This document shows, piece by piece, positions 1 through 38,240 of a stretch of 64,000 nucleotides of DNA. The notes beneath the pieces are model-generated. The model was not told the DNA's origin. It did not search any database and was given only the letters and a program-made list of their open reading frames with translations. Source of the DNA: Leucoraja erinacea (Eukaryota); the NCBI RefSeq assembly GCF_028641065.1, contig NW_026576392.1, forward strand, positions 1-64,000, in the 5' to 3' direction. Within the stretch, counting starts at the first letter, position 1; each line of letters starts with the position of its first letter. The position numbers and the translations under genes are program-made.

Positions 1-767
1 TGAGTTCCTGATGATGCCGGTACCAAATAAGTTGTAGCTCGTTTCTGCGGTATTATAGGTGCAGTTAAAAGTCACCGACTCTCCTTCTACTACCTGTGCT
101 GACGGCAGCGATTGTGTGACGGTATCTCCATGATTGGGATCTGAAAAAATATATGGATTAGGTTTAGGCTTGTCATGCGTGCACCGAAATACGCGGAAGA
201 CCTTTGTATTACATGTCACCCAAACACATCAACTGATAATATACTTAAATACAATCAAACCAAACGCACGTTCAATAGATAGTTAAATGGAAGATGGCGA
301 GTGCAGAATAAAGTTATTATTATTGTAGCGAATCAGTTCCAGAGACAAAGGCCAATGTCGACACTGGGGTGGATATGCATCGCATAGTTCCCTTGCATAT
401 CGAGGTGAATCGAACATGGCCGCGGCTCAGTGGTAGGAAGGAACTGCAGATGCTGACTTAAACCGAAGTTAGACACGAAAAGCTGGAGTAACTCAGCGGA
501 TCTGCCAGCCTCCATTGGCAAAAGGAATAGGTGACCCAAATAAGGATCTCGACCCGAAACATTACCTATACCAATTCATTTTCTCCATGGCATATGGATG
601 GCGATTAGATAGTACCCGGCTTTCCATTTACATGTAGGGAGAGATTAGACAGGTTTCGCATTCACAATGATGGTCGACCTTTCGTCGGAGCAAGTAGCCG
701 GATTAATTGTTGCGACTTTACCTATCAGGCATGCTCCCCACACAATCCAAATGGCAAGTACGCGCAT
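1..767 (-). CDS. TCR alpha/delta V gene, family A (A0), truncated by window start; leader 767-722, V exon from 140
   Basis: Leader MRVLAIWIVWGACLI-G with GTAAAG donor; ttttcAG acceptor then DPNHGDTVTQSLPSAQVVEGESVTFNCTYNTAETSYNL; apparent -1/+1 indel pair around the WYR codons in the first 30 nt. Confidence 0.85.
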
Positions 768-2379
768 TTTCCCTGTGAAAGGCTCTTTGTGAACTTCCTT
801 CCTCGACCTGGTGCTGTGCGGCTTTCGGATGTTCTCGCCTCTCCTGCTGGTGCTGGTGGCGCTGGGGTAAAGGTGAGCGGGAAGCGGCTGACTTCCGCCT
901 ACCTCAACTTCCTCCCTCCTTGGGACTCGGTCAGCGTTCTTTCAGGTTCGGCATGTAGTGACTGGGTGGGGGAAGGAAACGTCTTCGTCGCTGTAACAGG
1001 GGAAACTCGGCTCGGCTTTTGGGAGGAACTCCATGGTATCATAATGTAAAGGAACTATGAGGAGCGGGTCAATGCGGGATTTATAGGTTACGTTGATTGC
1101 CTGGCGAAATGTACTTTCTGTTTAAATTTAATTCCGAGTTAGAAATGACCCCCATTCCCACATCGAACCGCAAGGAACGGATTCGATGCGAGATAGATGC
1201 AAGTTAGGATGCGAGGCCACCTTTAGAGTATTGCGTTCCGTTTTGGGCACGTGTCATATGAAAGATGTTGTCCAGCAGGGAAGGGTGCAGAGAAAACGTG
1301 CGATGATGTTGCCAGCACCCAAGGGACTGAGTTTGATTCGTGTAGTTCAGAGATACAGCGCGGAAACTGGCCCTTCGGCCCCACTGTGTCCACACCTACC
1401 AGTGATCCCCGCACATCAACAATACCCTACACACACTAGGGACAGTTTTACGTTGATCAAGTCAAGTCAAGGCAACTTCTATAGCACATTTAATAACAAC
1501 TCTCGTTGTGCAAAGTGCTTTATATTAGTGCAGGTTCTAAACGTGCTACAAACAGTTGTACATAGATCAACAATACACACATAAGTACATACATACAGCG
1601 CTCTCACAGAGGATCTCAAGAAAGGCTTGAGAGTAGAATTACGTTTTCGGTCTAGGCTTAAAAGAGTTGATGGAGGGGGCTGTTCTGATGGGAAGAGGGA
1701 TGCTGTTCCATAGTCTGGGTGTTTATAACAAGCCAATTAACCTACAAACATGTACGTCTTTGGATTGTGGGCGAAACCCCAAGATCTCGGAGAAAGCCCT
1801 CGCAAGTCACGACGAGAGCGTACAAACTGTACATACAAGCACCCGTAGTCGGGATACCCGTGTCTCTGGCGCAGTGAGGAAGTAGCTATACCGTTACGTC
1901 ACCGTGCCGCCGTGCCACTGTGCTACATGGTGAGGATGAGGTGGCTAGGACTATTCCATGATGCGCAGGGGGGTGAAGGGTGTCCAAAATCGTGAGAGGA
2001 GTAGATCTGGTAAATGCACAGAGTCACTTGCCCCGTATAGGGGAATAGAGAACCAGTGGAAACAGTTTGATTCTGTGTGTGTGTGTGTGTGTGTGTATGG
2101 TGGGGCTTTAATATGAACCATTGTCTGTACACAGTTTGTACGCTCTCCCCGCGCCTTGCGTGGGTTTTCTCCGAGATCTTGGTTTTCCGCCCACACTCCA
2201 AAGGCGTCCATGTTTGTAGATTAATTGACTTATTATCAATGTAAAATTGTCCCTAGTTTGGGTATTGTTAATGTGCGGGGATCACTGGTAGGTGCGGACT
2301 CGGTAGGCCGAAGGGCCCGTTTCCGCGCTCTATCTCTGAACTACACTAAACAAAACTCATTCCCTTGGGTGCTGGCAAC

Positions 2380-2383
<4 letters not shown>

Positions 2384-2424
<41 letters not shown>

Positions 2425-2716
2425 CCTTTATTGTCATCTTGCAAGGAACAGTTGTAAAGTGCAAAATTAAAAGACGTTTTTCCCAGGGAATAGCGGCGCA
2501 TCGCACATGAAATTTAAAACATTTCACACACAGTAACACGAAAAACAATCCAGTCCCTGATGGAACAGTATAAATAGTTAAAAGCAGGTAAACCACAACG
2601 TTAAAATACAATAAACCAATCATAAAAATGTCTGGGGCAGCTGATTTGAGTGGCCAGTGCCAGTTGTTAAAGTGTCCGTGCCAGCCGCAGAATCAAGTGA
2701 CTGTGAGTACAGAGTG
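2384..2716 (-). mobile_element. Retroposon 3' fragment with (ATTG)n tail (also ~16145-16498 and, inverted, ~22051-22337)
   Basis: (TCAA)n run plus AATAAA on minus strand; ATCA duplication; empty site ggcaacatcatcccaag in other units. Confidence 0.7.
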
Positions 2717-3245
2717 ATCATCCCAAGTTTGCTCGACATCCCTTCCTGCTTAACAACATGTTTCATATGACAAGTGCCCAAAACGGAACGCAATACTCTA
2801 AAGGTGGCCTCGCATCCTAACTTGCATCTCTCTCGCATTGAATCCGTTCCCTGCGGTTCGATGTTGGAATGGGGACAATTTCTAACTCGGAGATAAATTT
2901 AAACGGAAGGTACATTTCGCCAGGCCATCAACGTAACATATCAACCCATCATTGACCCGCACCTCACAGTTCCTTTACATTATGATACCTCACAAAAGCC
3001 GAGCCGAGTTTCCCCTGTTACAGCGATGACGACGTTTCCTCCCCCCACCCAGTCACTACTTACCTAGCCTGAAAGAACGCTGACCGAGTCCCAACTGGGG
3101 AGGAATTTGGGGTGGGCGGAAGTCAGTCACTTCCCGCCACCGTTGCCACAGCGCCACCAGCAGCAGCAGGAGAGGTGAGAACATCCGAAAGCCGCACAGC
3201 ACCAGATCGAGGAGAGAATTTCACAGAGAGTTTTTCACAGGGAAA

Positions 3246-4216: not shown

Positions 4217-6031
4217 TCTACTTGTGCTTTGCCTGCTGCAGCTTGATACGTCTGCATCGCGCTTGCTGGTTGTGGATTCCCGCCGCCTGAGAATTCTTCC
4301 CCACTCACTCAGTTTCTCTCGAGGGCGGCTTGCCGTGTCATCGGTGCAGCTAAAACCCACCGACTCCCTTTCTGTCCTCCGTGCTGAGAGCGGCATATGT
4401 GTGAACAGAATCGCCATGTCTGGTGTCTGGAAAACACATGGATTGGGTTTAGATTTATAATGGCCAGAGATATTGTGATGAACTATGCTTTGCATTCCAT
4501 ATATTTTACAATGTCTGGCAGACGCCGCTGAGATCCTCCAACACATAATTTTAGATTTGCTGATCATTCCAGCATCTCTAGGCATACGTGACTTGTTTTT
4601 AAGAATGGACTGGAAGGCTGTTCTGGTAGAATGGGTAAGATATACGGAATAAACGCTTAGCACGAACCTAATTCCTACCATAGGAAGCGAACCAAGCACG
4701 ATGGAAATTATCTTTATTTCAAATAAAAACACGTTGCTACAAAAAAATGTGTTCGTTAAAGTGGATATCTTTCTGGAAAATGCTGTCGTGTCTTAAAATG
4801 TTCGAATGTTATTGATCTGCCTGAACTCAGCTGCGAAAATAAGTGATCGGCAGAATAACCTTGTATTTAATTGTTATAGAGGGAATGGATGGTCATCGAA
4901 GTGTACACAGGCGTGGATCCCGGTTAGTTGGACAATCGGGTAACTACACTGCAGCTTCTTTCCCAAATACTCCGACTAATAACAGATCTACAGAGTCGAA
5001 CTTGGGGGGCACTGCTACTGTTGGACCTACGGTATATTTTATCTGAATACAGTAATCAGTGAGGCAAACCTTGGGGTGAAACACGTCGGGTGAATATCGG
5101 TAACAATAATGTTCTAAGAGAATGCCAAAGATAGGCTTCAAGTCGCCAAAGATTTCCACAACGGCGCTCGCTCTTCAAAATAACAGTGACAAGAATGTGT
5201 CAATTAATTCAATGAATTATCTTACAACATACATACAACTAATCCCACTGATAATAATATTGTAGCAATCGAGCTTGGGGATGAAAGGGGATAAGGGTCA
5301 AGGCACGAGTAGGGGCGATATGTGGGAAAGGCCTGTGTAAAATGGCAAAGAGATGTTAAGAGAAAGGCATGGAATCCGAGATTGAGATGAAGATTTGAAC
5401 GACAAGACGCTCCTCTACTTTAACAACCATATGTCACATTTCAAATCGCTGCAAGTTATCTTGTTGGTTGTTCATCTCCAAATTCAATGAGTTCGCTTCA
5501 TCAAACATTTACCAGATCACAGTTTATTCAATGAGGAGAAGGCTATTTTGTTGTTTTGAAGGGTTTTTTTAGCGTGTGGAAATCGCTTTTGACTTGGTGA
5601 CTATCTTTATTATTCTCCGCGAAAATGCGTTGTGTTCATTTACCAACATTCAAGGTGCTCTTCCAAACCGCAAAGCATTCGCGTGAATTATTTTTCCTGC
5701 CCACCATTCCAACCCAACACAACCAAATTAAATTCCGGGCGGCCACGGTGGCGCAGCAGCAGAGTTGCTGCCTTACAGCACTTGCAGCGCGGGAGACACG
5801 GGATCGATCCCGTCTACGGGTGCTCTCTGTGCGGAGTGCGTAGGTTCTCGCCGTGACCTCGTGGGTCTTCTCCGAGATCCTGCTGACTCGATGTACTGCT
5901 CTCAGCTGCAATGAGCTACATTGCGTTCCCCAATCGAGCCGAATATCGCCAATGTAGGGAACACACAGATTTCAATTTCGTTATCATTCATAATCGCACT
6001 AATTTTTCTGTTTGAATGTCAAGTTGTTGCA

Positions 6032-6081: not shown

Positions 6082-6761
6082 AGCTAACAATGATATTAGA
6101 CATTTCCCGGACCTGCGTCCGTTTTAATCTCTCTTTAATCTCTCGTTTTCACACCCTACCGTTCCATATCTCTAGTCTCCCTCTCTCCTGAATCTCGGTC
6201 TTGACCCGAAACGTCACCCATCTTCTCTCCGGATATGCCTTCTGTCCCACCTGCATTTTGTGTCTATCTTCGGCAGGGTACTGCAGGATTTAACTCCATA
6301 AAGTAGAGTACAGGCCGGTGCACATCGACCCCATTGTGGACATTGGGATTTGATTCTGGAATTGATGCGCTACATTGTGGAGAACTTTGTTCTGCACTCT
6401 GTATCTTTCCCTTTGCTCTATCTATTGCACTTCGGTTTGAATGGGTTGTATTTATGGATCGTTTTCTGATCTGCCAGCTAGTATGTAAAGCATAGTTCAT
6501 CACTTTATCTCTGGCCATTATAAATCTACACCCAATCCATGTGATCTCCAGACACCAGACATGGCGATTCTGTTCACACAGATGCCGCGCTCAGCACGGA
6601 GCACAGAAAGGGAGTCGGTGGGTTTCAGCTGCGCCAATGACACCGCAAGCCGCCCTCGAGAGAAACTGAGTGAGTTGGGAAGAATTCTCAGACGGCGGGA
6701 AACTACAACCAGCAAGCGCGGTGCAGACGTATCTCACTGCAGCAGGCAAAGCAGAACCTGA

Positions 6762-6800
6762 TGTTTTTGTATGAAGGTTTCACTGGTTTCCATCACTGTG
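6762..6800 (-). other. 23-RSS of A2
   Basis: CACAGTG + 23 nt + ACAAAAACA on minus strand. Confidence 0.95.
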
Positions 6801-7731
6801 AGGCTAAAGGCGCAGTAATAAACTGCAGAGTCGATCAGCTCCAGCCCGGATAGGGTTAAACTGACTAATTTTCTATCGGTCTGGAGCTGGGCAGAGAAGC
6901 GATCGCCTGCAAAATCGGCTTTATCCTCGTTTCCTCCTGAATGTTTATACAGTATGAACTCGGGCCTTGAGTCCTGATGATGCCGGTACCAAAATAAGAA
7001 GTAGCGCGTTTCTGCGGTATCATAGGAGCAGCTGAAAGTCACCGACTCTCCCTCTACCTTCTGTGCTGACGGCAGCGATTGTGTGACGGTATCTCCATGA
7101 TTGGGATCTGAAAAAATATTTGGATTAGGTTTAGGTTTGTCATGCGTGCCCCGAAATACGCGGAAGACCTTTGTATTACATGTCACCCAAACACATGAAC
7201 TGATAATATACTTAAATACAATCAAATCAAACGCACGTGCAATAGGTAGTTAAATGGCAGATGGCGAGTGCAGAATAAATTTCATATTATTGTAGCGAAT
7301 CCGTTCCAGAGACAAAGGCCAATGTCGACACTGGGGTAGATATGCATCGCATAGTTCCCTTGCATATCGAGGTGAATCGAACATTGCCGCGGCTGAGAGG
7401 TAGGAAGGAACTGCAGATGCTGACTTAAACCGAAGTTAGACACAAGCTGGAGTAACTAAGCGGGTCTGCCAGCCTCCCTTGGCAAAAGGAATAGGTGACC
7501 CAAAGAAGGATCTCGACCCGAAACATTACCTATACCAATTCATTTTCTCCATGCCATATGGATGGCGATTAGATAGTACCCGGCTTTCCATTTACATGTA
7601 GGGAAAGATTAGACCGGTTTCGCATTCACAATGATGGTCGACCTTTCGTCGGAGCAAGTAGCCGGATTAACTGTTGCGACTTTACCTATCAGGCATGCTC
7701 CCCACACAATCCAAATGGCAAGTACGCGCAT
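6801..7731 (-). CDS. TCR alpha/delta V gene, family A (A2), intact; leader 7731-7686, V exon 7107-6801
   Basis: 46-nt leader, GT/AG sites, C..WYRH..DSAVYYCAFS V domain. Confidence 0.93.
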
Positions 7732-9889: not shown

Positions 9890-10386
9890 ATGCGCGTATT
9901 TGCCATTTGGATTGGGTGGGGAGCATGCCTGATAGGTAAAGTCGCAACAGTCAATCCGGCTACTTGCTCCGATGAAAGGTCGACCATCATTGTGAATGCG
10001 AAACCTGTCTAATCTTTCCCTACATGTAAATGGAAAGCCGGGTACTATCTAATCGCCATCCATATGCCATGGTGAAAATGAATTGGAACAGGTAATGTTT
10101 CGGGTCGAGATCCTTCTTCAGGTCACCTATTCCTTTTGTCAAGAGAGGCTGGCAGACCCGCTGAGTTACTCCAGCTTGTTGTGTCTAACTTCGGTTTAAG
10201 TCAGCATCTGCACAGTTGCTTACTACCTCTCAGCCGCGGCCATGTTCGATTCACCTCGATATGCAAAGGAACTATGCGATGCATATCCACCCCAGTGTCG
10301 ACATTGGCCTTTGTCTCTGGAACTGATTCGCTACAATAATAATAACTTTATTCTGCACTCGCTATCTTCCCTTTATCTATCTATTG
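9890..10386 (+). pseudogene. Family A V relic (A3): leader exon 9890-9935 and partial intron; V exon and RSS missing
   Basis: Leader MRVFAIWIGWGACLI-G/GTAAAG; intron homology stops at 10386 where a LINE fragment begins. Confidence 0.88.
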
Positions 10387-11314
10387 GGCGAACAGGGATG
10401 AACAATTTTTGTAGTTCATCCATGCAGTCTTTAAATGCCTTCCATTGCATATCCACCGTCAACCCTTTTAGAATTAATTACCAGTCAATCTTGGCCAATT
10501 CACGTCTCATACCCTCAAAGTTACCTTTCTTTAAGTTCAAAACCATTGTTTCTGAATTAACAATGTCACTCTCTATCCTAATGAAGAACTCAACCATATT
10601 ATGGTCACTCTTGCCCAAGGGGCCACGCACAACAAGACTACTAACTAACCCTTCCTCATTACTCAATACACAGTCTAAAATAGCCAGCTCTCTCGTTGGT
10701 TCCTCTACATGTTGATTTAGATAACTATCCCGCATACATTCCAAGAAATCCTCTTCCTCAGCACCCCTGCCAGTTTGATTCAACCAATCTATATGTAGAT
10801 TGAAGTCACCCATTATAACTGCTTTGCCTTTGTCGCAAGCATTTCTAATTTCCTGTTTGATACCATCTCCAACTTCACTACTACTGTTAGGTGGCCTGTA
10901 CACAACACCCACCAGCGTTTTCTGCCCCTTATTGTTTCGCAGCTCTTCCCATACCGATTCCACATCCTCCAAACTAATGTCCTTCCTTTCCATTGCGTTA
11001 ATCTCCTCTCTAACCAGCAACACTACCCCACCTCCTTTTCCTTTCTCTCTATCCCTCCTGAATATTGAATATCCCTGGATGTTCAGCTCCCAGCCTTGGT
11101 CACCCTGGAGCCATGTCTCCGTGATCCCAACTATATCATAATCATTAATGGCTATCTGCACGTTCAACTCATCCACCTTGTTGCGAATACTCCTTGCATT
11201 GAGACACAAAGCCTTCAGGCTTGTTTTTACAACGCTTTTACCCCTTATACAATTATGTTGAAAAGTGGCCCTTTTTGATGTTTGCCCTGGTTTTGTCTGC
11301 CTGCCACTTTTACA
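10387..11314 (-). mobile_element. CR1-like non-LTR retrotransposon fragment, APE endonuclease region of ORF2
   Basis: ORF 10478-11410 has LNARS, GITETWL, GGGV, VVYRPP, MGDFN, LD, SDH motifs of the exonuclease-endonuclease-phosphatase domain. Confidence 0.9.
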
Positions 11315-13589
11315 TTGCATTCCATATCTTGTACAATGTCTGACAGACGCCGCTGAGAGCCTCCAACACATAATTTTAGATTTGCTGCACATTCCAGCAT
11401 CTCTAGTCATACGTGACTTGTTTTCAAGAATGGACTGGAAGGCTGTTCTGGTAGAATGGGTCAGTTATACAGAATAAACGCTTAGCACAAACGTAATTAC
11501 TGCATCAGGAAGCAAATAAGCACGATGAAAATCATATATTTTTTTCAAATAAAGTCACAATGCTACATAAAATTGCTTCGTTAAAGTGGATATCTTTCTG
11601 GATAATGTTGTCGTGCCTTAAAATGTTCAAATGTTATTGATCTGCCTGAACTCAGCTGCGAAAATAAGTGATCGGCAGAATAACCTGGTATTTAATTGTT
11701 ATAGAGGGAATGTATCGTCATCGCAGTGTACACAGGCGTGTATCCCGGTTAGTTGGTCAATCGGGTAACTACACTGCAAGCTTCTTTCCCAAATACTCCG
11801 ACTAATAACAGATCTACAGAGTCGAATTTGGGGGGCACTGCTACTGTTGGACCCACGGCATATTTCATCTGAATACAGTAATCAATGAGGCAGACCTTGG
11901 GGTGAAACACGTCGGGTGAATATCCGTAACAATAATGTTCTAAGAGAATGCTAAAGATTGGCTTCAAGTCGCTAAAGATTTCCACACCGGCGCCCGCTCT
12001 TCAAAATAACAGTGACAAGAATTTCTCAATTAAATCAATGAATTATCTTACAACATACATACAACTAATGCCACTGATAATAATATTGTAGCAATCGAGC
12101 TTTGTCAGGGGATGAAATGGCATAAGAGTCAAGGCACGAGTAGGGGCGATATGTGGGCAAGTGCTTTGTAAAATGTCACAGAGGAGATGTTAAGAGAAAG
12201 GCATGGAATCCGAGATGGAGGTGAAGGTTTGAACGCCAAGACGCTCCTCTACTTTAACAACCATATGTCACACTTCAAACTGCTGCAAATTATTCTGTTG
12301 GTTGTTCATCTCCAGTTTCAATGATGAGATCCACCCCTCGCTTCATCAAACATTCACCAGATCACAGTTTATTCAATGAGGAGAAGGCTATTTTGTTGTT
12401 TTGAAGGGTTTCTTTAGCGTGTGGAAATCTTTTTTGACTGTGCCTATCTTTATTATTATCCGCCAAAATGCGTTGTGTTCATTCAACAACATTCACGGTG
12501 CTCTCCCAAACCGCAAAACATTCGCGTGAATGATTTACCCTGCCCACCATTCCAACCCAACCAAATTAAATTCCGGGCGGCCACGGTGGCGCAGCAGTAG
12601 AGCTGCTGCCTTACAGCACTTGCAGCGCCGGAGACACGGAATCGATCCCGTCTATGGGTGCTGTCTGTACGGAGTTTGTAGGTTCTCGCCGTCACCTCGT
12701 GGGTCTTCTCCGAGATCCTGCTGACTCGATGTACTGCTCTCAGCTGCAATGAGCTACATTGCGTTCCCCAATCGGGCCAAATATCGCCAAAGTAGGTAAC
12801 ACATAGATGAAGAAGATGATGTTGATCGGCGTCGCCAGTAAGCGATACATTTTCAATTTCGTTATCATTCATAATCGCACTAATGTTTCTGTTTGAATGC
12901 CAAGTTGTTGCCTTCCCCCCAGCTAACAATGATATTAGACATTTCCTGGACCAGCGTCCGTTTTAATCTCTCGTTATCACACCTTACCGTTCCATATCTC
13001 TAGTCTCCCTCTCTCCTGAATATCGGTCTCGACCCGAAACGTCACCCATCTTCTCTTCGGATATGCGTCCTGTCCCACCTGCATTTTGTGTCTATCTTCG
13101 GCAGGGTACAACAGGATTTAACTCCGTAAAGTAGAGTACAGGCCGGTGCACATCGACCCCATTGTGGACATTGGGATTTGATTCTGGAATTGATGCGCTA
13201 CAATGTGGGGAACTTTATTCTGCACTCTGTACCTTTCCCTTTGCTCTATCTATTGCACTTCGGTTTGAATGAGTTGTATTTATGGATCGTTATCTGATCT
13301 GCCAGCTAGTATGTAAAGCATAGTCTATCACTGTATCTCTGGCCATTATAAATCTAAACCCAATCCATGTGTTTTCCACACACCAGACATGGCGATTCTG
13401 TTCACACAGATGACGCCCTCAGCACGGAGCATAGAAAGGGAGTCGGTGTGTGTCAGCTGCGCCGATCACACCGCAAGCCGCCCTCGAGAGAAACTGAGTG
13501 AGTTGGGAAGAATTATCAGACCGCGGGAAACTACAACCAGCAAGCGCGGTGCAGACGTATCTCACTGCAGCTGGCAAAGCAGAAGCTGA

Positions 13590-13628
13590 TGTTTTTGTAT
13601 GAAGGTTTCACTGGTTTCCATCACTGTG
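13590..13628 (-). other. 23-RSS of A4
   Basis: CACAGTG + 23 nt + ACAAAAACA. Confidence 0.95.
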
Positions 13629-14561
13629 CGGCGAAAGGCGCAGCAATAAACTGCAGAGTCGCTCAGCTCCAGCCCCGATAGGGTTAAACTGACTAATTTT
13701 CTATCGGTCTGGAGCTGGGCAGCGAAGCGATCGCCTGCAAAATCGGCTTTCTTCTCGCCTCCACTTGAATATTTCTTCAATATGAACTCGGGACTTGAAT
13801 CCTGATGATGCCGGTACCAAAATAACTCGTAGCTCGTTGCTGTGGTGTCATAGGTGCAGCTGAAAGTTATCGACTCTCCTTCCACCTTCTGTGCTGACGG
13901 CAGCGATTGTGTGACGGTATCTCCATGATTGGGATCTGAAAAATATATGGATTAGGTTTAGGTTTCTCATGCGTGCACCGAAATACGCGGAGGACCTTTG
14001 TATTGTATGTCACCCAAACACATCAACTGACAATATACTTAAATACAACCGGATCAAACGCACGTGCAATAGATAGTTAAATGGAAGATAGCTAGTGCAG
14101 AATAAAATAATTATTCTTGTAGCGAATCAGTTCCAGAGACAAAGGCCAATGTCGACACTGGGGTGGATATGCATCACATAGTTCCCTTGCATATCGAGGT
14201 GAATCGAGCATTGCCGCGTCTTATCCGTAGGAAGGAACTGCAGATGCTGACTTAAACCGAAGTTAGACACAAAAAGCTGGAGTAACTGAGCGGGTCTGCC
14301 AGCCTCTCTTGACAAAATGAATAGGTGACCCGAAGAGGGGGCTCGACACGAAACATTACCTATACCAATTCATTTTCTCCATGGCATATGGATGGCGGTT
14401 AGATAGTACCCGGCTTTCCATTTACATGTAGGGAAATATTAGACCGGTTTCGCAATCACAATGATGGTCGACGTTCCGTCGGAGCAAGTAGCCGGATTAA
14501 CTGTTACGACTTTACCTATCAGGCATGCTCCCCACACAATCCAAATGGCAAGTACGCGCAT
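13629..14561 (-). CDS. TCR alpha/delta V gene, family A (A4), open frame with YCC in place of YYC; leader 14561-14516, V exon 13935-13629
   Basis: Leader, splice sites and V domain intact; DSAVYCCAFR. Confidence 0.9.
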
Positions 14562-16141: not shown

Positions 16142-16173
<32 letters not shown>

Positions 16174-16879: not shown

Positions 16880-16920
16880 GGGAGGAAGTTGAGGTCGGCG
16901 GAAGTCAGTCGCTTCCCGCC
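16880..16920 (+). promoter_or_regulatory. Candidate family A V promoter, ETS-site cluster 110-150 bp upstream of ATG (present in most copies)
   Basis: GAGGAAGT (PU.1/Spi-like) followed by GGCGGAAGT-cagtc-(g/a)CTTCCCGCC. Confidence 0.45.
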
Positions 16921-17028: not shown

Positions 17029-17960
17029 ATGCGCGTATTTGCCATTTGGATTGTGTGGGGAGCATGCCTGATAGGTAAAGTCGCAACAGTTAATCCGGCT
17101 ACTTACTCCGATGAAAGGTCGACCATCATTGTGAATGCGAACCGGTCTAATATTTCCCTACATGTAAATGGAAAGCCGGGTACTATCTAATCGTCATCCA
17201 TATGCCATGGAGAAAATGAATTGGTACAGGTAATGTTTCGGGTCGAGATCCTTCTTTGGGTCACCTATTCATTTTGCCAAGGGAGGCTGGCAGACCTGCT
17301 GAGTTACTCCAGCTTTTTGTGTCTAACTTCGGTTTAAGTTAGCATCTGCATTTCCTTCCTACCTCTCAGCCGCGGCCATGTTCGATTCACCTCGATGTGC
17401 AAGGGAACTATGCGATGCATATCTACCCCAGTGTCGAAATTGGCCTTTGCTTCTGGAACTGATTCGCTACAATAATATGAACTTTATTCTGCACTCGCTA
17501 TCTTCACTTTAACTATCTTTTGCACGTGCGTTTGATTTGATTGTATTGAAGTATATTATCAGTTGATGTGTTTGGGTGGCATGTAATACAAAGGTCTTCC
17601 GCGTATTTCGGTGCACGCATGACGAACCTAAACTTAATCCATATATTTTTCAGATCCCAATCATGGAGATACCGTCACACAATCGCTGCCGTCAGCACAG
17701 AAGGTAGAAGGAGAGTCGGTGACTTTCAGCTGCACCTATGATACCGTAGCAACGTACTACACCTTATTTTGGTACCGGCATCATCAGGACTCAAGGCCCG
17801 AGTTCATACTGTATAAAGATTCAAGAGGAAACGAGGAGAAAGCCGATTTTGCAGGTGATCGCTTCTCTGCCCAGCTCCAGACCGATAGAAAATTAGTCAG
17901 TTTAACCCTATCGGGGCTGGAGCTGAGCGACTCTGCAGTTTATTACTGCGCTCTGAGCCT
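17029..17960 (+). CDS. TCR alpha/delta V gene, family A (A5), intact; leader 17029-17074, V exon 17654-17960
   Basis: MRVFAIWIVWGACLI leader; V domain ending DSAVYYCALS. Confidence 0.93.
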
Positions 17961-17999
17961 CACAGTGATGGAAACCAGTGAAACCTTCCTACAAAAACA
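17961..17999 (+). other. 23-RSS of A5
   Basis: CACAGTG + 23 nt + ACAAAAACA. Confidence 0.95.
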
Positions 18000-20549: not shown

Positions 20550-20588
20550 TGTTTTTGTATGAAGGTTTCACTGGTTTCCATCACTGTG
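20550..20588 (-). other. 23-RSS of A6
   Basis: CACAGTG + 23 nt + ACAAAAACA. Confidence 0.95.
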
Positions 20589-21519
20589 AGGCTAAAGGCG
20601 CAGTAATAAACTGCAGAGTCGCTCAGCTGCAGCCCCGATAGGGTTAAACTGACTAATTTTCTATCGATCTGGAGCTGGGCAGAGAAGCGATCGCCTGCAA
20701 AATCGGCTTTCTTCTCGGTTCCTCCTGAATGTTTCCACAGTATGAACTCGGGCCTTGAGTCCTGATGATGCCGGTACCAAAATAAGAGGTAGTTCGTTGC
20801 TGCGGTATCATAGGTGCAGCTGAAAGTCACCGACTCTCCTTCCACTTTCTGTAATGACGGCAGCGATTGTGTGACGGTATCTCCATGATTGGGATCTGAA
20901 AAAATATATGGATTAGGTTTAGGTTTGTCATGCGTGCACCGAAATACGCGGAAGACCTTTGTATTACATCACCCAAACACATCAACTGATAATATACATA
21001 AATACAATCGTATCAAACGCACGCGCAATAGATAGACATAGGGAAGATAGCGAGTGCAGAATAAAGTTACTATTATTGTAGCGAATCAGTTCCAGAGACA
21101 AAGGCCGATGCCGACACTGGGGTGGATATGCATCGCATAGTTCCCTTGCATATCGAGGTGAATCGAACATGGCCGCGGCTGAGAGGTAGGAAGGAACTGC
21201 AGATGCTGACTTAAACCGAAGTTAGACACGAAAATCTGGAGTAACTCAGCGGATCTGCCAGCCTCTCTTGGCAAAAGGAATAGGTGACCCAAAGAAGGAT
21301 CTCGACCCGAAACATTACCTATACCAATTCATTTTCTCCATGGCATATGGATGGCGATTAGATAGTACCCGGCTTTCCATTTACATGTAGGGAAAGATTA
21401 GACCGGTTCGCATTCACAATGATGGTCGACCTTTCATCGGAGTAAGTAGCCGGATTAACTGTTGCGACTTTACCTATCAGACATGCTCCCCACACAATCC
21501 AAATGGCAAAAACGCGCAT
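20589..21519 (-). CDS. TCR alpha/delta V gene, family A (A6), intact; leader 21519-21474, V exon 20895-20589
   Basis: Leader, splice sites, V domain ending DSAVYYCAFS. Confidence 0.93.
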
Positions 21520-22337
21520 TTTCCATGTGAAAGGCTCTTTGTGAAATTCTCTCCTCGACCTGTTGCTGTGCGGCTTTTGGATGTTCTCGCCTCTCCTGCT
21601 GGTGCTGGTGGCGCTGTGGTAACGGCGGGCGGGAAGCGACTGACTTCCGCCGACCTCAACTTCCTCCCCAGTTGGGACTCGGTCAGCGTTCTTTCAGGCT
21701 AGATAAGTAGTGACTGGGTGGGGGGAGGAAACGTCGTCATCGCTGTAACAGGGGAAACTCGGCTCGGCTTTTGTGAGGTATCATAATGTAAAGGAACTGT
21801 GAGGTGCGGGTCAATGATGGGTTGATATGTTACGTTGATGGCCTGGCGACATGTACCTTCCGTTTAAATTTATCTCTGAGTTAGAAATTGTCCCCATTCC
21901 AACATCGAACCGCACGGAACAGATTCAATGCGAGAGTGATGCAAGTTAGGATGCGAGGCCACCTTTAGAGTATTGCGTTCCGTTTTGGGCACTTGTAATA
22001 TGAAACATGTTGTCAAGCAGGAAAGGGTGTAGAGAAAACTTGGGAGGATCACTCTGTACTCACAGTCACTTGATTCTGCGGCTGACACGGACACTTTAAT
22101 AACTGGCACTGGCCATTTTAACAACTGGCACTGTCCACTCAAATCAGTTGCCCCGGACATTTTTATGATTGGTTTATTGTATTTTAACGTTGTGTTTTAC
22201 CTGCTTTTAACTATTTATACTGTTATTGCTTTTCGTGTTGTTATGTGTGAAATGTTTTAAATTTCATGTGCTATGCGCCGCTATTCCCTGGGAAACGTCT
22301 TTTCATTGTGCACTGTACAACTGTTGCTTGCAAGATG

Positions 22338-22518
22338 NNNNNNNNNNNNNNNNNNNNNNNNNNNNNNNNNNNNNNNNNNNNNNNNNNNNNNNNNNNNNNN
22401 NNNNNNNNNNNNNNNNNNNNNNNNNNNNNNNNNNNNNNNNNNNNNNNNNNNNNNNNNNNNNNNNNNNNNNNNNNNNNNNNNNNNNNNNNNNNNNNNNNNN
22501 NNNNNNNNNNNNNNNNNN
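22338..22518. other. Assembly gap
   Basis: N run. Confidence 1.
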
Positions 22519-24115
22519 AGGGACTGAGTTTTGTTTAGTGTAGTTCAGAGATAGAGCGCGGAAACGGGCCCTTCGGCCTACCGAGTCCGCACCTCCCAGT
22601 GATCCCCGCACATTAACAATACCCAAACTAGGGACAATTTTACATTGATAATAAGTCAATTAACATACAAACATGGACGCCTTTGGAATGTGGGCGGAAA
22701 CCCAATATCGCGGAGAAAACCGACGCAAGGCGCGGGGAGAGCGTACAAACTGTGTACAGACAACGGTTCATAATAAAGCCCCCACACACACACACACACA
22801 CACACACACCATCAACCTGTATCCTCTGGTTCTCTACTCCCCTAAACGGAGCAGGTGTATCTGTGCGTTTACCCGATCAACACCTTTCATGATTATGGAC
22901 ACCCTTCACGCCCCTGCGGATCGTGGAATGGTCCTAGCCACCTCCTCCTCATCATGTAGCACAGTGGCACGGCGGCACGGTGACGTAACAGTATAGCTAC
23001 TTCCTTACTGCGCCAGAGACTCGGGTATCCTGACTACGGGTGCTTGTATGTACAGTTTGTACGCTCTCCCCGTGACTTGCGAGGGTTTTCTCCGAGATCT
23101 TGGGTTTTCGCCCACAATCCAAAGACGTACATGTTTGTAGGTTAAGCGGCTTGTTATAAATACCAACACAATGGAACAGCATCCCTCTTCCCATCAGAAC
23201 AGCCCCCTCCATCAACTATTTTAAGCCTAGACCGAAAACGTAATTCTACTCTCAAGCCTTTCTTGAGATCCTCTGTGAGAGCGCTGTATGTATGTACTTA
23301 TGTGTGTATTGTTGATCTATGTACAACTGTTTGTAGCACGTTTAGAACCTGCACTAATATAAAGCACTTTGCACAACGAGAGTTGTTATTAAATGTGCTA
23401 TAGAAGTTGCCTTGACTTGACTTGATCAACGTAAAACTGTCCCTAGTGTGTGTAGGGTATTGTTGATGTGCGGGGATCACTGGTAGGTGTGGACACAGTG
23501 GGGCCGAAGGGCCAGTTTCCGCACTGTATCTCTGAACTACACGAATCAAACTCAGTCCCTTGGGTGCTGGCAACATCATCGCACGTTTTCTCTGCACCCT
23601 TCCCTGCTGGACAACATCTTTCATATGACACGTGCCCAAAACGGAACGCAATACTCTAAAGGTGGCCTCGCATCCTAACTTGCATCTATCTCGCATCGAA
23701 TCCGTTCCTTGCGGTTCGATGTGGGAATGGGGGTCATTTCTAACTCGGAATTAAATTTAAACAGAAAGTACATTTCGCCAGGCAATCAACGTAACCTATA
23801 AATCCCGCATTGACCCGCTCCTCATAGTTCCTTTACATTATGATACCATGGAGTTCCTCCCAAAAGCCGAGCCGAGTTTCCCCTGTTACAGCGATGAAGA
23901 CGTTTCCTTCCCCCACCCAGTCACTACATGCCTAACCTGAAAGAACGCTGACCGAGTCCCAAATGGGGAGGAAGTTGAGGTAGGCGGAAGTCAGCCGCTT
24001 CCCGCCCACCTCTACCCCCAGCTCCACCAGCACCAGCAGGAGTGGCGAGAACATCCGAAAGCCGCACAGCACCAGATCGAGGAGAAAATTTCACAAAGGG
24101 TTTTTCACAGGGAAA

Positions 24116-25049
24116 ATGCGCGTACTTGCCATTTGGATTGTGTGGGGAGCATGCCTGATAGGTAAAGTCGCAACAGTTAATCCGGCTACTTGCTCCGACG
24201 AAAGGTCGACCATCGTTGTGAATGCGAAACCGGTCTAATCTTTCCCTACATGTAAATGGAAAGCCGGGTACTATCTAATCGCCATCCATATGCCGTGGAG
24301 AAAATTAATTGCTATTGGTAATGTTTCGTGTCGAGACCCCTCTTCCGGTCACCTATTACTTTTGCCAAGAGAGGCTGGCTGATCCGCTGAGTTACTCCAG
24401 CTTTTTGTGTCTAACTTCGGTTTAAGTCAGCATCTGTAGTTTCTTCCTACCTCTCAGCGGCGGCAATGTTCGATTCACCTCGATATGCAAGGGAACTATG
24501 CGATGCATATCCACCCCAGTGTCCGACATTGGCCTTTGTCTCTGGAACTGATTCGCTACAATAATAATAACTTTATTCTGCACTCTCTATCTTCCCTTTA
24601 ACTATCTATTGAACGTGCGTTTGGTTTGATTGTATTTATGTATATTATCAGTTGATGAGTTTGGGTGACATGTAATACAAAGGTCTTCCGCGTATTTCGG
24701 TGCACGCATGACAAACCTAAACCTAATCCATATATTTTTCAGATCCCAATCATGGAGATACCGTCACACAATCGCTGCCGTCAGCACAGAAGGTGGAAGG
24801 AGAGTCGGTGACTTTCAGCTGCACCTATGATACCGCAGCAACGAGCTACTTCTTATTTTGGTACCGGCATCATCAGGACTCAAGGCCCGAGTTCATACTG
24901 TATAAACGTTCAAGAGGAAACGAGGAGAAAGCCGATTTTGCAGGCGATCGCTTCTCTGCCCTGCTCCAGACCGATAGAAAATTTGTCAGTTTAACCCTAT
25001 CGGGGCTGGAGCTGAGCGACTCTGCAGTTTATTACTGCGCTCTGAGCCT
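24116..25049 (+). CDS. TCR alpha/delta V gene, family A (A7), intact; leader 24116-24161, V exon 24743-25049
   Basis: Leader, splice sites, V domain ending DSAVYYCALS. Confidence 0.93.
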
Positions 25050-25088
25050 CACAGTGATGAAAACCAGTGAAACCTTCATACAAAAACA
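25050..25088 (+). other. 23-RSS of A7
   Basis: CACAGTG + 23 nt + ACAAAAACA. Confidence 0.95.
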
Positions 25089-27491: not shown

Positions 27492-27530
27492 TGTTTTTGT
27501 ATGAAGGTTTCACTGGTTTCCATCACTGTG
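27492..27530 (-). other. 23-RSS of A8
   Basis: CACAGTG + 23 nt + ACAAAAACA. Confidence 0.95.
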
Positions 27531-28463
27531 CGGCCAAAGGCGCAGTAATAAACAGCAGAGTCGCTCAGTTCCAGCCCCGATAGGGTTAAACTGAATAATT
27601 TTCTATCGATCTGGAGCTGGACAGAGAACCGATCGCCTGCAAAATCGGCTTTCTTCTCGGTTCCTCCTGAATATTTATACAGTATGAACTCGGGCCTTGA
27701 GTCCTGATGATGCCGGTACCAAAATAAGTCGTAGCCCGTTGCTGCGGTGTCATAGGTGCAGCTGAAAGTCATCGACTCTCCTTCCACTTTCTGTGCTGAC
27801 GGTAGCGATTGTGTGACGGTATCTCCATGATTCGGATCTGAAAAAATATATGGATAAAGTTTAGGTTTGTCATGCGTCCACCGAAATACGCGGAAGACCT
27901 TTGTATTACATGTCACCCAAACACATCAACTGATAATATACTTAAATACAATCAAATCAAACGCACGTTCAATAGATAGACAAAGGGAAGACAGAGAGTG
28001 CAGAATAAAATCATTATTATTGTAGCGAATCAGTTCCAGAGGCAAAGGCCAATGTCGACACTCGGGTAGATATGCATCGCATAGTTCCCTTGCATATCGA
28101 GGTGAATCGAACATTGCCGCGGCTGAGAGGTAGGAAGGAACTGCAGATGCTGACTTAAACCGAAGTTAGACACAAAAAGCTAGAGTAACTCAGCGGGTCT
28201 GCCAGCCTCTCTTGACAAAAGGAATGGGTGACCCGAAGAGGGGTCTCGACACGAAACATTACCTATACCAATACATTTTCTACATGGCATATGGATGGCG
28301 ATTAGATAGTACCCGGCTTTCCATTTACATATAGGGAAAGATTAGACCGGTTCGCATTCACAATGATGGCCGACGTTCCGTCGGAGTAAGTAGCCGGAAA
28401 AACTATTGCGACTTTACCTATCAGGCATGCTCCCCACACAATCCAAATGGCAAATACGCGCAT
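27531..28463 (-). CDS. TCR alpha/delta V gene, family A (A8), intact; leader 28463-28418, V exon 27837-27531
   Basis: Leader, splice sites, V domain ending DSAVYYCAFG. Confidence 0.93.
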
Positions 28464-30548: not shown

Positions 30549-31119
30549 AAACAAAACTCAGTCATTTGGGTGCTGGCAACATCATCCCAAGCATTCTCTG
30601 CTCCCTTTCCTGCCTGACGACATGTTTCATATGATAAGTGCCCAAAACGGAACGCAATACTCTAAAGGTGGCCTCGCATCCTAACTTGCATCTATCTCGC
30701 ATTGAATCCGTTCCTTGCGGTTCGATGTGGGAATGGGGATAATTTCTAACTCGGAGATAAATTTAAACAGAAAGTACATTTCGCCAGGCCATCAACGTGA
30801 CCGATAATTCCCGCATTGACCCGCTCCTCATAGTTGCTTTACATTATGATACCTTAGAGTTCCTCACAGAAGCAGATGCGAGTTTCCCCTGTTACAGCGT
30901 TGAAGACGATTCCTCCCCTAACCCAGTCACTACATGCCTAACCTGAAAGAACGCGGACCGAGTCCCAACTGGGGAGGAAGTTGAGGTAGGCGGAAGTCAC
31001 TCACTTCCCGCCCACCGTCACCACTGCGCCACCAGCACCAAAAGTAGAGGCGAGAACATCCGAAAGCTGCACAGCACCAGGTCGAGGAGGGAAGTTCACA
31101 AAGGGTTTTTCACAGTGAA

Positions 31120-31689
31120 ATGCCATTTGCCATTTGCATTGTGCGGGGAGCATGCCTGATAGGTGAAGTCGCAACAGTTAATCCGGCTACTTACTCCGAC
31201 TGAATGTCGACCATTATTGTGAATGCGAACCGGTCTAATCTTCCCCTACATGTAAATGGAAAGCCGGGTATTATCTAATCGCCATCATATGCCATGGAGA
31301 AAATGAATTGGTATAGGTAATGTTTCGTGTCGAGACCCTTCTTCAGGTCACCTATTCCTTTTATTCTGCACTCGCTATCTTCCCTTTATCTATCTATTGA
31401 ACGTGCGTTTGATTTGATTGTATTTAAGTATATTATCAGTTGATCTGTTTGGGTGACATGTAATACAAAGGTCTTCCGCGTATTTCGGGGCACGTATGAC
31501 AAACCTGAACCTAATCCATACATTTTTTCAGATCCCAATCATTGAGATACCGTCACACAATCGCTACCGTCAGCACAGAAGGTGGAAGGAGAGTCGATGA
31601 TTTTCAGCTGCACTTGTGATACCGCAGCAACGTACTACGTCTTATTTTGGTACCGGCATCATCAGGACTCAAGGCCCGAATTCATACTG
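31120..31689 (+). pseudogene. TCR V pseudogene, family A (A9); leader 31120-31162, V exon from 31532
   Basis: GGA>TGA stop at the start of exon 2 (CAT TGA GAT); about 400 bp deleted after EFIL, removing the 3' half of V and the RSS. Confidence 0.92.
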
Positions 31690-34040: not shown

Positions 34041-34079
34041 TGTTTTTGTATGAAGGTTTCACTGGTTTCCATCACTGTG
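34041..34079 (-). other. 23-RSS of A10
   Basis: CACAGTG + 23 nt + ACAAAAACA. Confidence 0.95.
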
Positions 34080-35014
34080 CGGCTAAAGGCGCAGTAATAA
34101 ACAGCAGAGTCGCTCAGCTCCAGGCCCGATAGGGATAAACTGACTAATTTTCTATCGGTCTGGAGCTGGGCAGCGAAGCGATCGCCTGCAAAATCGGCTT
34201 TCTCCTCGCTTCCACTTGAATATTTATTCAGTATGAACTCGGGCTTTGAGTCCTGGTGATGCCGGTACCAAAATAAGACGTAGCTCGTTTCTGCGGTGTC
34301 ATAGGTGCAGCTGAAAGTCACCGACTCTCCTTCCACCTTCTGTGCTGACGGTAGCGATTGTGTGACGGTATCTCCATGATTGGGATCTGAAATAAATATA
34401 TGGATTAGGTTTAGGTTTGTCATGCGTGCATCGAAATACGCGGAAGACCTTTGTATTACATGTCACCCAAACACATCAACTGATAATATACTTAAATACA
34501 ATCAAATCAAACCCACGTTCAATAGATAGACGAAGGGAAGACAGAGAGTGCACAATAAAATAATTGTTATTGTAGCGAATCAGTTCCAGAGACAAAGGCC
34601 AATGTCGACACTGGGGTGGATATGTATCGCATAGTTCCCATGCATATCGAGGTGAATCGAACATTGCCGCGGCTTATACGTAGGAAGGAACTGCAGATGC
34701 TGAATTAAACCGGAGTTAGACACAAAAAGCTGGTGTAACTCAGCGGATCTGCCAGCCTCTCTTGGCAAAAGGAATAGGTGACCTGAAGAAGGGTCTCGAC
34801 CCGTAACATTACCTATACCAATTCATTTTCTCCCAGGCATATGGATGGCGATTAGATAGTACCCGGCTTTCCATTTACATCTAGGGAAATATTAGACCGG
34901 TTTCGCATTCACAATGATGGTCGACCTTTCATCGGAGTAAGTAGCCGGATTAACTGTTGCGACTTTACCTATCAGGCATGCTCCCCACACAATCCAAATG
35001 GCAAGTACGCGCAT
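34080..35014 (-). CDS. TCR alpha/delta V gene, family A (A10), intact; leader 35014-34969, V exon 34386-34080
   Basis: Leader, splice sites, V domain ending DSAVYYCAFS. Confidence 0.93.
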
Positions 35015-36289: not shown

Positions 36290-36293
<4 letters not shown>

Positions 36294-36323
<30 letters not shown>

Positions 36324-37151
36324 TTTATTTATATAGCACTTTTCAAGAAAACCAGTATTTGAACCAAAGTGCTTTACAGAGATTGATTAAAATTAATTGA
36401 ACAGATCAATGCAATAAATCCATACAAATCAAAAAAAAGAAAAAAAGAAAAAAGACACAGAAACAGTACACTATAGAAATCAACATGAAACGTCCCCCCA
36501 CAGCAGAATTCACTGTGAGGGAAGGCACTAAAAATACCCAGTTCTCCCCCTCATAGTCCACCCGAGGTTGGGGCCTATATCTGGCCTCCTCAGCCAACCC
36601 GGTGTTTTCAGGTGCTCTTGCCGCGAAGCTGGATCATCGGCGTCGGTGAACATCCATCAGCGGCTTGGACTGAAGCGGCCGCTTCCCCCCCGAAGACTGC
36701 AACGACCAAAGTTCACAGGCCGCGCCGGCCGAACCTCCGACTCTGGCGATCTCGGATCCCAGGCTCCGCGGTGGTGTCGGCGGTCACAGTGCCCCGGAGC
36801 TTACCGCAAGGCGACCCGATAAGGCATCGCCCGCTCCATGTAGGTGTCCCAGCATCTACACCGCCGTCGAATCTGCAGTCCCGGCAGGAAACGCCGCTCC
36901 AGCGCTGCTCCAGTTCGATTGTAGGCCGCACAGAGAGGACGAACATGCGGTTCCGAGAAAAACCGCATCTCCGACCAGGTAGGACTGGGGTTAAAATAGT
37001 TTCCCCCTTCCCTTCCCCCACCCTAAAAGAAGACCTCCAAGAAACATTCTATACGAACAGGACTAAAAATAAAATAAAAAAGGGTGAAAGGACGGAATGC
37101 AGGAGGAGCAGCCGTACACAACGGCGCATCACCCCCGCAGTCCGCCATCTT
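36294..37151 (-). mobile_element. ~860-bp non-coding retroposon with GTATA target-site duplication and (TTA)n tail
   Basis: Interrupts gccccGTATAg.ggaa seen intact in other units; starts AAGATGGCGG, ends aaaagtgctatataaataaac(att)n on minus strand. Confidence 0.8.
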
Positions 37152-37583
37152 GTATAGAGGAATTGAGAACCAGAGGATAATGGTTGATGGTGTGTGTGTG
37201 TGTGTGTGTGTGTGTGTGATGGGGCTTTAATATGAACCATTGTCTGTACACAGTTTGTACGCTCTCGCCGCGCCTTGCGTGGGTTTTCTCCGCGATATTG
37301 GGTGTCCGCCCACACTCCAAAGGCGTCAATGTTTGTAGGTTAATTGGCTTGTTATCAATGTAAAATTGTCCCTAGTGTGTGTAGGGTATTGTTGATGAGC
37401 GCGGATCACTGGTAGGTGCGGACTCGGTGGGCCGAAGGGCCCGTTTCCGCGCTGTATCTCTGAACTACACGAAACAAACTCAGTCCCTTGAGTGCTGGCA
37501 ATACCATCCCAAGTACCGAACATCCGAAAGCCGCAGAGCACCAGGTCGAGGAGACACATTCTCAAGGGGTTTTCTCGGGGGAA

Positions 37584-37738
37584 ATGCGCGTTTTTGCCAT
37601 TTGCATTGTGTGGAGGGCATGCCTGACAGGTAAAGTCTCAACAGTTAATCCAGCTACTTGCTCCGACGGAACGTCGACCATCATTGTGAATGCGAACCGG
37701 TCTAATCTTTCCCTACATGTAAATGGAAAGCCGGGTAC
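37584..37738 (+). pseudogene. Family A orphan leader (A11), leader exon 37584-37629; V exon and RSS deleted
   Basis: MRVFAICIVWRACLT-G/GTAAAG; intron joins directly to distal 3'-flank sequence at ~37750. Confidence 0.85.
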
Positions 37739-38019
37739 GAAATTATTTAATCTCCAGTTTCAATGATGAGATCAACTCCTCGCTTCATCAAACATTTACC
37801 AGATCACAGTTTATTTAAGGAGGAGAAGGCAATTTTGTCATTTTGAAGGGTTTTTATATCGTGTGGAAACCTATTTTTAACTTATTGCCTATCTTTATTA
37901 TTCTCCGCGAAAATGCGTTGTGTTCATTTACCAACATTCACGGTGCTCTCCCAAACCTCAAAGTATTCGCGTGAATTATTTATCCTGCCCACCATTCCAA
38001 CCCAACCAAATTAAATTCC

Positions 38020-38240
38020 GGGCGGCCTCGGTGGCGTAGCAGTAGAGCTGCTGCCTTACAGCACTTGCAGCGCCGGAGACCCGAGTTCGATCCCGACTAC
38101 GGGAGCTGTCTGTACGGAGTTTGTACCTTCTCGCCGTGACCTCGTGGGTTTTTCTCCGAGATCTGTGGCGTACAAGTATGCAGGTTAATTGGCTTGGTGT
38201 AAGTGCAAATTGTCCCCAGTGTGTGTAGGATAGTGTTAAT
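38020..38240 (+). mobile_element. HE1/V-SINE-like tRNA-derived SINE (shorter copies ~5737-5879, 12574-12718, 19536-19675, 33002-33144)
   Basis: A box GGTGGCGTAGCAGTAG, B box GAGTTCGATCCC, followed by tgtacggagtttgtaccttctc..cgtgggttttt V-domain-like sequence. Confidence 0.7.

What the first reader, a model, noticed from the sequence alone, without database searches (positions are those of the whole stretch)
1..38240. Palindromic TCR V array with strictly alternating orientation
Seen: 12 family A loci run -,+,-,+ throughout. Each unit holds two V genes head-to-head (ATGs 2.2-2.7 kb apart) on ~2-kb inverted arms, and 23-RSSs of adjacent units face each other. Known: the 12/23 rule blocks V-V joining, and V orientation relative to D/J decides deletional versus inversional joining. 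Inference: near-identical V genes are offered in both recombination modes wherever D/J/C lies. Inversional joins would keep intervening V genes available for secondary alpha rearrangement.
Basis: partly seen in the sequence, partly recalled or inferred. Interest (0 to 1): 0.75.

Follow-up and report, generated by a model that had tools for sequence, protein, structure and literature searches.

The report
Half-decayed mirror-paired T-cell receptor array
In a cartilaginous fish, T-cell receptor building-block genes sit as six back-to-back pairs, likely because one mirrored pair was copied in tandem; four of the six reversed copies are broken, so this is likely ordinary gene-family turnover rather than a design for two cutting modes.

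Summary
The alternation is real but counts remnants. Twelve family-A TCR alpha/delta V leaders run -,+ with starts 2,159-2,654 bp apart. Only 7 of 12 have ATG, open V exon and 23-RSS: 5 of 6 on minus, 2 of 6 on plus (p 0.24). Within-pair arms are 0.2-1.8 kb at 86-93%, V proteins 80-94% identical, all CDRs differ. The pattern is one head-to-head pair repeated every ~6.9 kb. The window's contig has no J or C. I found J-alpha, D and two C exons on C875 and tiled six homologous overlaps to the window: minus copies point at D-J-C about 0.5 Mb away (deletional), plus copies are inverted. Inverted V genes also occur elsewhere in this locus. Pair 4 has its spacer flipped, swapping promoters between arms. 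Both-orientation use and preservation by inversion are already published (salmon TRA, mouse Igk); alternating V arrays are known in birds. I found no paper on this layout in elasmobranch TRA/D. Expression is untested. An unreviewed scan note reports a similar alternating shark IgM array in another genome.

The parts
1..767 (-). Family-A V, pair 1: leader and intron intact, V exon with 1-base frameshift, cut by the contig start
3246..4216 (+). Family-A V, pair 1: TTG for ATG, Cys for conserved Trp, intact 23-RSS; likely non-functional
6762..7731 (-). Family-A V, pair 2: intact leader, V exon, 23-RSS
9890..10386 (+). Family-A remnant, pair 2: leader and most of the intron, no V exon
10478..11464 (-). 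LINE-type endonuclease frame (PF14529 E 1.3e-11) where the pair-2 plus V exon would lie
13590..14561 (-). Family-A V, pair 3: open, 23-RSS, YCC instead of YYC
17029..17999 (+). Family-A V, pair 3: intact, inverted relative to D-J-C
   Evidence: (PF07686 E 1.2e-16)
20550..21519 (-). Family-A V, pair 4: intact; plus-type promoter on a minus-type 3' flank
21519..24116 (.). Head-to-head spacer of pair 4, inverted relative to the other five spacers (holds an N stretch, 22338-22518)
24116..25088 (+). Family-A V, pair 4: intact, inverted; minus-type promoter on a plus-type 3' flank
27492..28463 (-). Family-A V, pair 5: intact
31117..31689 (+). Family-A pseudogene, pair 5: no ATG, shortened intron, stop in leader part 2, exon ends before CDR2
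34041..35014 (-). Family-A V, pair 6: intact
37584..37756 (+). Family-A remnant, pair 6: leader and start of intron only; the same break is in C989:12036
6316..6645 (+). Older V remnant (about 70% identity, intron end plus frameshifted FR1) facing the RSS of the minus gene; copies at 13144, 20104, 27046, 33595
39145..39476 (-). Single V exon of another family with 22-spacer RSS; anchor for the overlap with C989
41526..42490 (+). Further intact family-A V outside the finding, minus-type 3' flank in plus orientation
47520..49003 (+). Diverged family-A relative with 22-spacer RSS
52134..62796 (-). First 7 of 28 tandem V genes of a third family, all on minus, running to the contig end

Best explanation
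This is a stretch of the T-cell receptor alpha/delta V region in which six head-to-head V pairs repeat every ~6.9 kb, likely made by one inverted duplication followed by tandem copying, and whose inverted members are mostly broken. SHOWN: alternation, period, gene status, consensus 23-RSSs in both orientations, orientation-specific 3' flanks, one flipped spacer. INFERRED from contig overlaps: minus copies face D-J-C about 0.5 Mb away and would join by deletion; plus copies would join by inversion. INFERRED mechanism: unequal crossing-over between direct repeats changes pair number; recombination between the inverted arms of one pair flips the spacer (pair 4); selection acts on CDR diversity, not on keeping alternation; inverted copies are usable but dispensable. 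UNTESTED: whether 17029+ and 24116+ are rearranged and expressed.
For: Direct repeats up to 8.3 kb at 91%. All 10 of 10 tail-spacer comparisons are collinear at 88-94%; five of six head spacers are collinear. The 140-base 3' flank separates orientations: plus-plus 94.1%, minus-minus 96.1%, plus-minus 90.4%, as expected if two lineages were amplified together. Lesions were copied with the unit: C1211:31117, C989:17610 and C989:28829 share the shortened intron and the exon break; 37584 and C989:12036 share a break. Intact counts: 5 of 6 minus, 2 of 6 plus; C989 array (12-34 kb) 3 of 4 and 0 of 3. Pair 4: 21519- has the plus letter at 45 of 46 upstream diagnostic columns and the minus letter at 10 of 10 downstream; 24116+ is the reverse. 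CDR1+2 pN/pS 2.96 against 0.34 in frameworks, 7 genes. Orientation: J cluster, 2 D segments (12-D-23) and two C1-type exons on C875 minus; overlaps C875-C977-C1316-C928-C924 all plus, C924-C989 minus, C989-C1211 minus. 13 of 60 V calls on the oriented path are inverted, 10 of them outside 1-38240.
Against: The decay bias is not significant (Fisher p 0.24) and the copies are not independent. Two inverted copies in the array, plus 41526+ and its match C989:8080, are fully intact with consensus heptamers, and CDRs are diversifying, which fits use. The tree does not cleanly split orientations: 2 changes, the three array plus genes supported only 77/89, bootstrap unsettled; introns show little separation (90.8, 92.2, 91.3%). 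The orientation rests on six 94-99% overlaps between contigs taken as alternate haplotypes; the weakest is C1316-C928 (about 5.6 kb main block), and a haplotype-specific inversion between the array and D-J-C would reverse the assignment. The pair-4 spacer holds an N stretch and no read spans it. The diagnostic columns were defined on only two plus genes, and the crossover's inner bound rests on one column.
Confidence: 0.72

Rival explanations
1. Alternation is kept by selection because it serves secondary alpha rearrangement: after either a deletional or an inversional join, a same-family V in deletional orientation would lie within one or two units upstream of the new VJ.
For: Both orientations have consensus heptamers, unlike the one-way third family with CACGGTG, CACGGAG or CACGGAA in 27 of 28. 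Strong RSSs allow inversional capture at mouse Igk (PMC11153149, abstract) and secondary joins use the V genes just upstream (PMC13190342, abstract). The J-alpha cluster is large (115 reverse pattern matches genome-wide against 10 for the control). Inverted salmon TRAV are expressed, 13 of 14 (PMC8559430, passages).
Against: 4 of 6 inverted copies are broken here and 3 of 3 in the C989 array; broken copies were duplicated along with the unit; after an inversional join at 17029+ only broken plus copies remain among the proximal pairs in this contig. Other inverted V genes exist without pairing.
Confidence: 0.12
2. As proposed for bird IGH, inverted duplications feed a pool of close paralogues and pseudogenes that act as gene-conversion donors (germline, or somatic through AID) for expressed TCR alpha V genes.
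For: AID-type mutation acts on nurse shark TCR alpha (PMC5931798, passages). CDR motifs look like a patchwork, 52% of informative site pairs are incompatible, the truncated pseudogenes keep FR1-CDR1-FR2, and pair 4 shows real exchange between arms. Bird model: 10.64898/2026.09.05.749481 (abstract, section 5).
Against: A PHI-like clustering test on 14 V exons was negative (p 0.85), so recurrent mutation under selection explains the patchwork as well. Most family members here are RSS-bearing open genes, the opposite of the bird pattern. No transcripts were available.
Confidence: 0.08
3. The array or its alternation is an assembly artefact (fold-back or mis-joined repeats).
For: The locus is broken into unplaced contigs, the array touches the contig start, and no laid record spans a unit.
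Against: Copies differ by 4-12% with private insertions and lesions; a second contig, C989, has the same unit, spacer orientation and lesions but a different copy set.
Confidence: 0.04

Closest known systems
Atlantic salmon TRA/TRD locus (PMC8559430, passages)
   Same: TRAV genes in both orientations; both used at comparable frequency; the authors state that inversion preserves intervening genes for secondary rearrangement.
   Different: There orientation comes in two large blocks and most V genes are inverted to C. Here V genes lie upstream of D-J-C, 47 of 60 calls on the tiled path are in line with it, and one family alternates gene by gene.
Avian IGH inverted-duplication architecture and chicken alternating pseudo-V arrays (10.64898/2026.09.05.749481; abstract, passages, section 5)
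   Same: Alternating strands made by inverted duplications of a few kb, direct and inverted copies of one unit, fast structural change.
   Different: There the whole locus, irregular inversions of many sizes, mostly pseudogene donors and few functional genes. Here one family, a regular ~6.9-kb period, a TCR locus, 7 of 12 genes open with RSS. The preprint compares IG loci of birds, mammals and reptiles; 'shark' and 'T cell receptor' do not occur in its main text.
Mouse Igk (PMC11153149, PMC13190342; abstracts)
   Same: Deletional and inversional V genes with strong RSSs, repeated secondary rearrangement.
   Different: Orientation is by cluster, an Ig locus, and usage is measured; here usage is unknown.
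Elasmobranch TCR alpha/delta translocon (PMC6795676, PMC12227049, PMC5931798; passages)
   Same: V-D-J-C(delta)-many J-C(alpha) order, IgH-like V genes near D, families of close alpha/delta V genes.
   Different: The passages seen give no V orientation map; two key nurse-shark locus papers (Deiss 2019, Ott 2021) could not be read.

Membership tests
TCR alpha/delta V gene segments (TRAV/TRDV) | Split leader, GT-AG intron, V-set exon with Cys, Trp and YYC | tested here: met
   46-base leader, 578-582-base intron, open exon in 7 of 12 loci; PF07686 E 1.2e-16; one of the seven has YCC
TCR alpha/delta V gene segments (TRAV/TRDV) | 3' RSS with 23-base spacer | tested here: met
   8 of 8 full-length exons in 1-38240
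TCR alpha/delta V gene segments (TRAV/TRDV) | Closest single-domain relatives are TCR alpha or delta V | tested here: met
   Best single-V-domain PDB hits are TCR chains (1tvd E 2.7e-16, 7lli delta V3 E 5.9e-16, then alpha chains); higher rows are multi-domain constructs
TCR alpha/delta V gene segments (TRAV/TRDV) | Linked upstream of D-J-C(delta) and J-C(alpha) | tested here: inconclusive
   Not on the same contig; supported by a chain of six homologous overlaps. The alpha and delta names of the two C exons come from position; PDB only shows C1-type domains
TCR alpha/delta V gene segments (TRAV/TRDV) | Rearranged and expressed with C alpha or C delta | not testable with these tools
   No RNA holder listed; the one RNA run laid is of unknown tissue and only 6% was read
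Avian-type inversion-driven donor array | V genes alternate through inverted duplication | tested here: met
   local to one family
Avian-type inversion-driven donor array | Few functional genes, many RSS-less pseudogenes, locus-wide | tested here: not met
   7 of 12 open with RSS; 28 of 28 neighbouring third-family genes on one strand
Avian-type inversion-driven donor array | Gene-conversion tracts in expressed V genes | not testable with these tools
   No transcripts; germline clustering test negative, p 0.85
High-identity palindrome kept by arm-to-arm conversion (Y-chromosome type; recalled) | Arms more alike within a palindrome than between palindromes, near 100% | tested here: not met
   Within-pair arms 86-93%; same-orientation copies of different pairs 91-95%

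The most novel reading that the evidence does not exclude
An elasmobranch TCR alpha/delta locus has its own version of the bird-type inverted-duplication architecture, built from functional RSS-bearing V genes: flips between the arms reshuffle promoters and V parts in the germline, the strong-RSS inverted copies join by ~0.5-Mb inversion that spares the delta genes, and alternation or the half-genes feed secondary rearrangement or AID-driven conversion.
Probability: 0.15. Interest if true: 0.65.

Novelty: new variant of a known kind. Interest (0 to 1): 0.33.

Why it matters
It gives same-family V genes with almost identical RSSs and promoters, 2.5 kb apart in opposite orientation: a natural control for asking whether orientation alone changes V usage in an early-branching jawed vertebrate, which bears on scanning versus diffusion models of RAG capture. 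It also shows that alternating inverted-duplicate V arrays are not confined to birds, at least locally and at a TCR locus. The tiling gives a draft order and orientation for a fragmented elasmobranch TRA/TRD locus. If usage data show nothing special, it is ordinary birth-and-death evolution.

Tried and rejected
First guess at the leader (a hydrophobic stretch 130-180 bases before the V exon) was rejected: in-frame stop, no ATG; the true leader lies about 625 bases upstream. C17:38.15-38.29 Mb and C15:45.00-45.06 Mb were fetched as possible homes of J/C: no J found; C15 gave 2 V calls. The Pfam C1-set search did not list the TCR alpha/delta C exons (150 of 220 candidates scored). No RNA holder listed. 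RNA run X23 laid no reads on the three V exons in 13000-22300, only on interspersed repeats; tissue unknown, another organism code, 6% read: no evidence either way. Short-read contigs of six DNA or unlabelled runs carry family-A pieces but none spans a unit or the flipped spacer. Two weak 12-RSS-like sites (36511+, 30511-) have no D or J and were treated as chance; no shuffle control was run. PHI-like test negative. C1519 (22 V calls, one strand) could not be linked and was left out of orientation counts. One of 11 allelic V pair checks gave 8 of 97 in an ungapped comparison, likely a one-residue register shift as the printed sequences show; the other ten gave 88-96 of 97. No structure prediction was run; it would not decide anything here.
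Full report
What the window is. The window is the first 64 kb of G000:C1211, an unplaced 107,651-base contig in a 2.19-Gb genome. It holds only V segments; no J or D was found in it. The V exons are V-set domains whose best single-domain PDB matches are TCR delta and alpha chains. Ig constant exons scattered over many contigs and IgH-like V genes beside the D segments point to a cartilaginous fish. That is my inference; an earlier unreviewed note (e1-9942770) calls the genome skate-type, which I did not test.

Observation. A probe for the leader exon finds 12 family-A loci in 1-38240 in strict -,+ order, with head-to-head starts 2159-2654 bases apart. Status: minus 7731, 21519, 28463 and 35014 are intact; 14561 is open with YCC; 767 is frameshifted and cut by the contig start. 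Plus 17029 and 24116 are intact; 3246 has TTG and Cys for Trp; 9890, 31117 and 37584 are remnants. So 5 of 6 against 2 of 6 (Fisher p 0.24). The frameshift at 767 is one base in a T run and could be a sequencing error, though C989:30949 has a one-base loss in the same stretch. All 8 full exons have CACAGTG-23-ACAAAAACA. RSSs face each other at 3 of 5 junctions. Within-pair arms are 241-1789 bases at 86-93%. V proteins are 80.4-93.8% identical and every CDR1 and CDR2 differs; pN/pS is 2.96 in CDRs and 0.34 in frameworks for 7 genes (raw pairwise counts, no significance test).

How it arose. The minus genes recur every 6551-6964 bases, all 10 tail-spacer comparisons are collinear, and five of six head spacers are collinear. 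The 3' flank splits by orientation (94.1 and 96.1% within, 90.4% between), while introns and the tree separate poorly. Broken plus copies share lesions across contigs. This is what tandem copying of one inverted pair gives, so the 0.0005 chance figure for 12 independent orientations does not apply. Each unit also carries an older inverted V remnant. In pair 4 the spacer is reversed: the minus gene has plus-type letters at 45 of 46 upstream diagnostic columns and minus-type at 10 of 10 downstream, and its partner is the mirror case. That is the signature of recombination between the two arms; no read spans it and it holds an N stretch.

Second copy. C989:6.6-34 kb matches the window in reverse, 95-97% in the unique part near 37-43 kb, with a different set of copies. 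In its array (12-34 kb) 3 of 4 genes in the window's minus sense are intact and 0 of 3 in the plus sense; outside it, 8080 (plus sense) and 5496 (minus sense) are intact. I read C989 as the other haplotype; a paralogous duplicate is not excluded.

Where D-J-C lies. A J pattern gave 115 reverse matches against 10 for the control, and most of the 100 listed lie on C875 and C121. On C875 minus, in transcription order: two 12-D-23 segments, four J at 167-178 kb, a C exon at 162 kb, J segments from 134 to 6 kb, a C exon at 4.5 kb. Both C exons are C1-type; delta and alpha are assigned by position. Overlaps of 94-99%: C875-C977 (+, 16 blocks), C977-C1316 (+, 4), C1316-C928 (+ collinear blocks, main one 5.6 kb and mostly unique; minus blocks there involve a repeat), C928-C924 (+, 6), C924-C989 (-, 11), C989-C1211 (-). 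Ten of 11 V pairs across links match at 88-96 of 97 residues. C875:10001-70000 and 50 kb of C928 were not fetched. The result: window minus is in line with D-J-C, about 515 kb from the delta C. By the established rules of V(D)J joining, minus copies join by deletion and plus copies by inversion. On this path 47 of 60 V calls are in line and 13 inverted, 10 of those outside 1-38240 (calls need an RSS and an open last 85 residues; C1519 left out).

Mechanism and rivals. Best reading (0.72): structural turnover, with diversifying selection on CDRs and dispensable inverted copies. Selection for alternation (0.12) is helped by strong RSSs in both orientations and hurt by the decay. A donor-pool reading (0.08) has AID activity and arm exchange for it, and a negative clustering test (p 0.85) against it. 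Artefact (0.04) is unlikely given 4-12% divergence and the second contig. Reads could not test assembly or expression.

What is known. Salmon TRA uses both orientations and the paper states the preservation argument (PMC8559430, passages). Newt TRB has expressed inverted clusters (PMC12698447, passages). Mouse Igk mechanisms: PMC11153149 and PMC13190342 (abstracts). Bird IGH alternation by inverted duplication: 10.64898/2026.09.05.749481 (abstract, passages, section 5). Shark TCR background: PMC5931798, PMC12227049, PMC6795676 (passages). Eight searches returned no description of an alternating V array in an elasmobranch TRA/D locus. Two nurse-shark locus papers were not held, and I read no supplements; locus maps there could already show mixed orientation. 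An unreviewed scan note (e1-9879868) reports an alternating shark IgM array in another genome.

Verdict. Real, partly overstated, explained by ordinary duplication. New variant of a known kind; interest 0.33, mainly as a natural test of orientation effects on V usage.

Noticed in passing
window 21519-24116: Pair-4 spacer is inverted; crossover likely between 17 bases before and 268 bases after the ATG, so promoters (and perhaps leaders) were swapped while V exons stayed.
   Followed up: yes
window 6316-6645, 13144-13473, 20104-20433, 27046-27375, 33595-33924; shorter mirror pieces at 4335-4455 and 18118-18238: An older, about 70% identical V remnant faces the family-A RSS from the opposite strand: an earlier round of inverted duplication carried in every unit.
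   Followed up: partly
window 51843-64000 and G000:C1211 to 106620: 28 tandem V genes of one family, all minus, 27 with non-consensus heptamers CACGGTG, CACGGAG or CACGGAA, next to the two-way family with consensus heptamers.
   Followed up: partly
G000:C989:5496-8080: Two intact family-A genes tail-to-tail with RSS heptamers about 720 bases apart; the window has only one of them at the matching place.
   Followed up: partly
G000:C875:197427-225183 and C977:62756-91459: Two IgH-like V genes near the D segments (TAILV-like by recalled description); one lies inverted with its own J about 2 kb downstream.
   Followed up: no
G000:C875:5980-134103 and C121:27792-48367: Very large J-alpha cluster with local tandem expansions that differ between the two contigs; not counted in full (C875:10001-70000 not fetched).
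   Followed up: partly
G000:C989:144843-165505: A second inverted V duplicate pair (2-kb arms, 91%) of another family.
   Followed up: no
G000:C25:22.30-22.98 Mb: 19 similar C1-set exons in runs of both orientations, probably an Ig light-chain cluster array.
   Followed up: no
G000:C1519: 22 V calls, all on one strand, no overlap found with the tiled contigs.
   Followed up: partly
window 39145-39182 and 48966-49003: Two V genes with 22-base RSS spacers.
   Followed up: no
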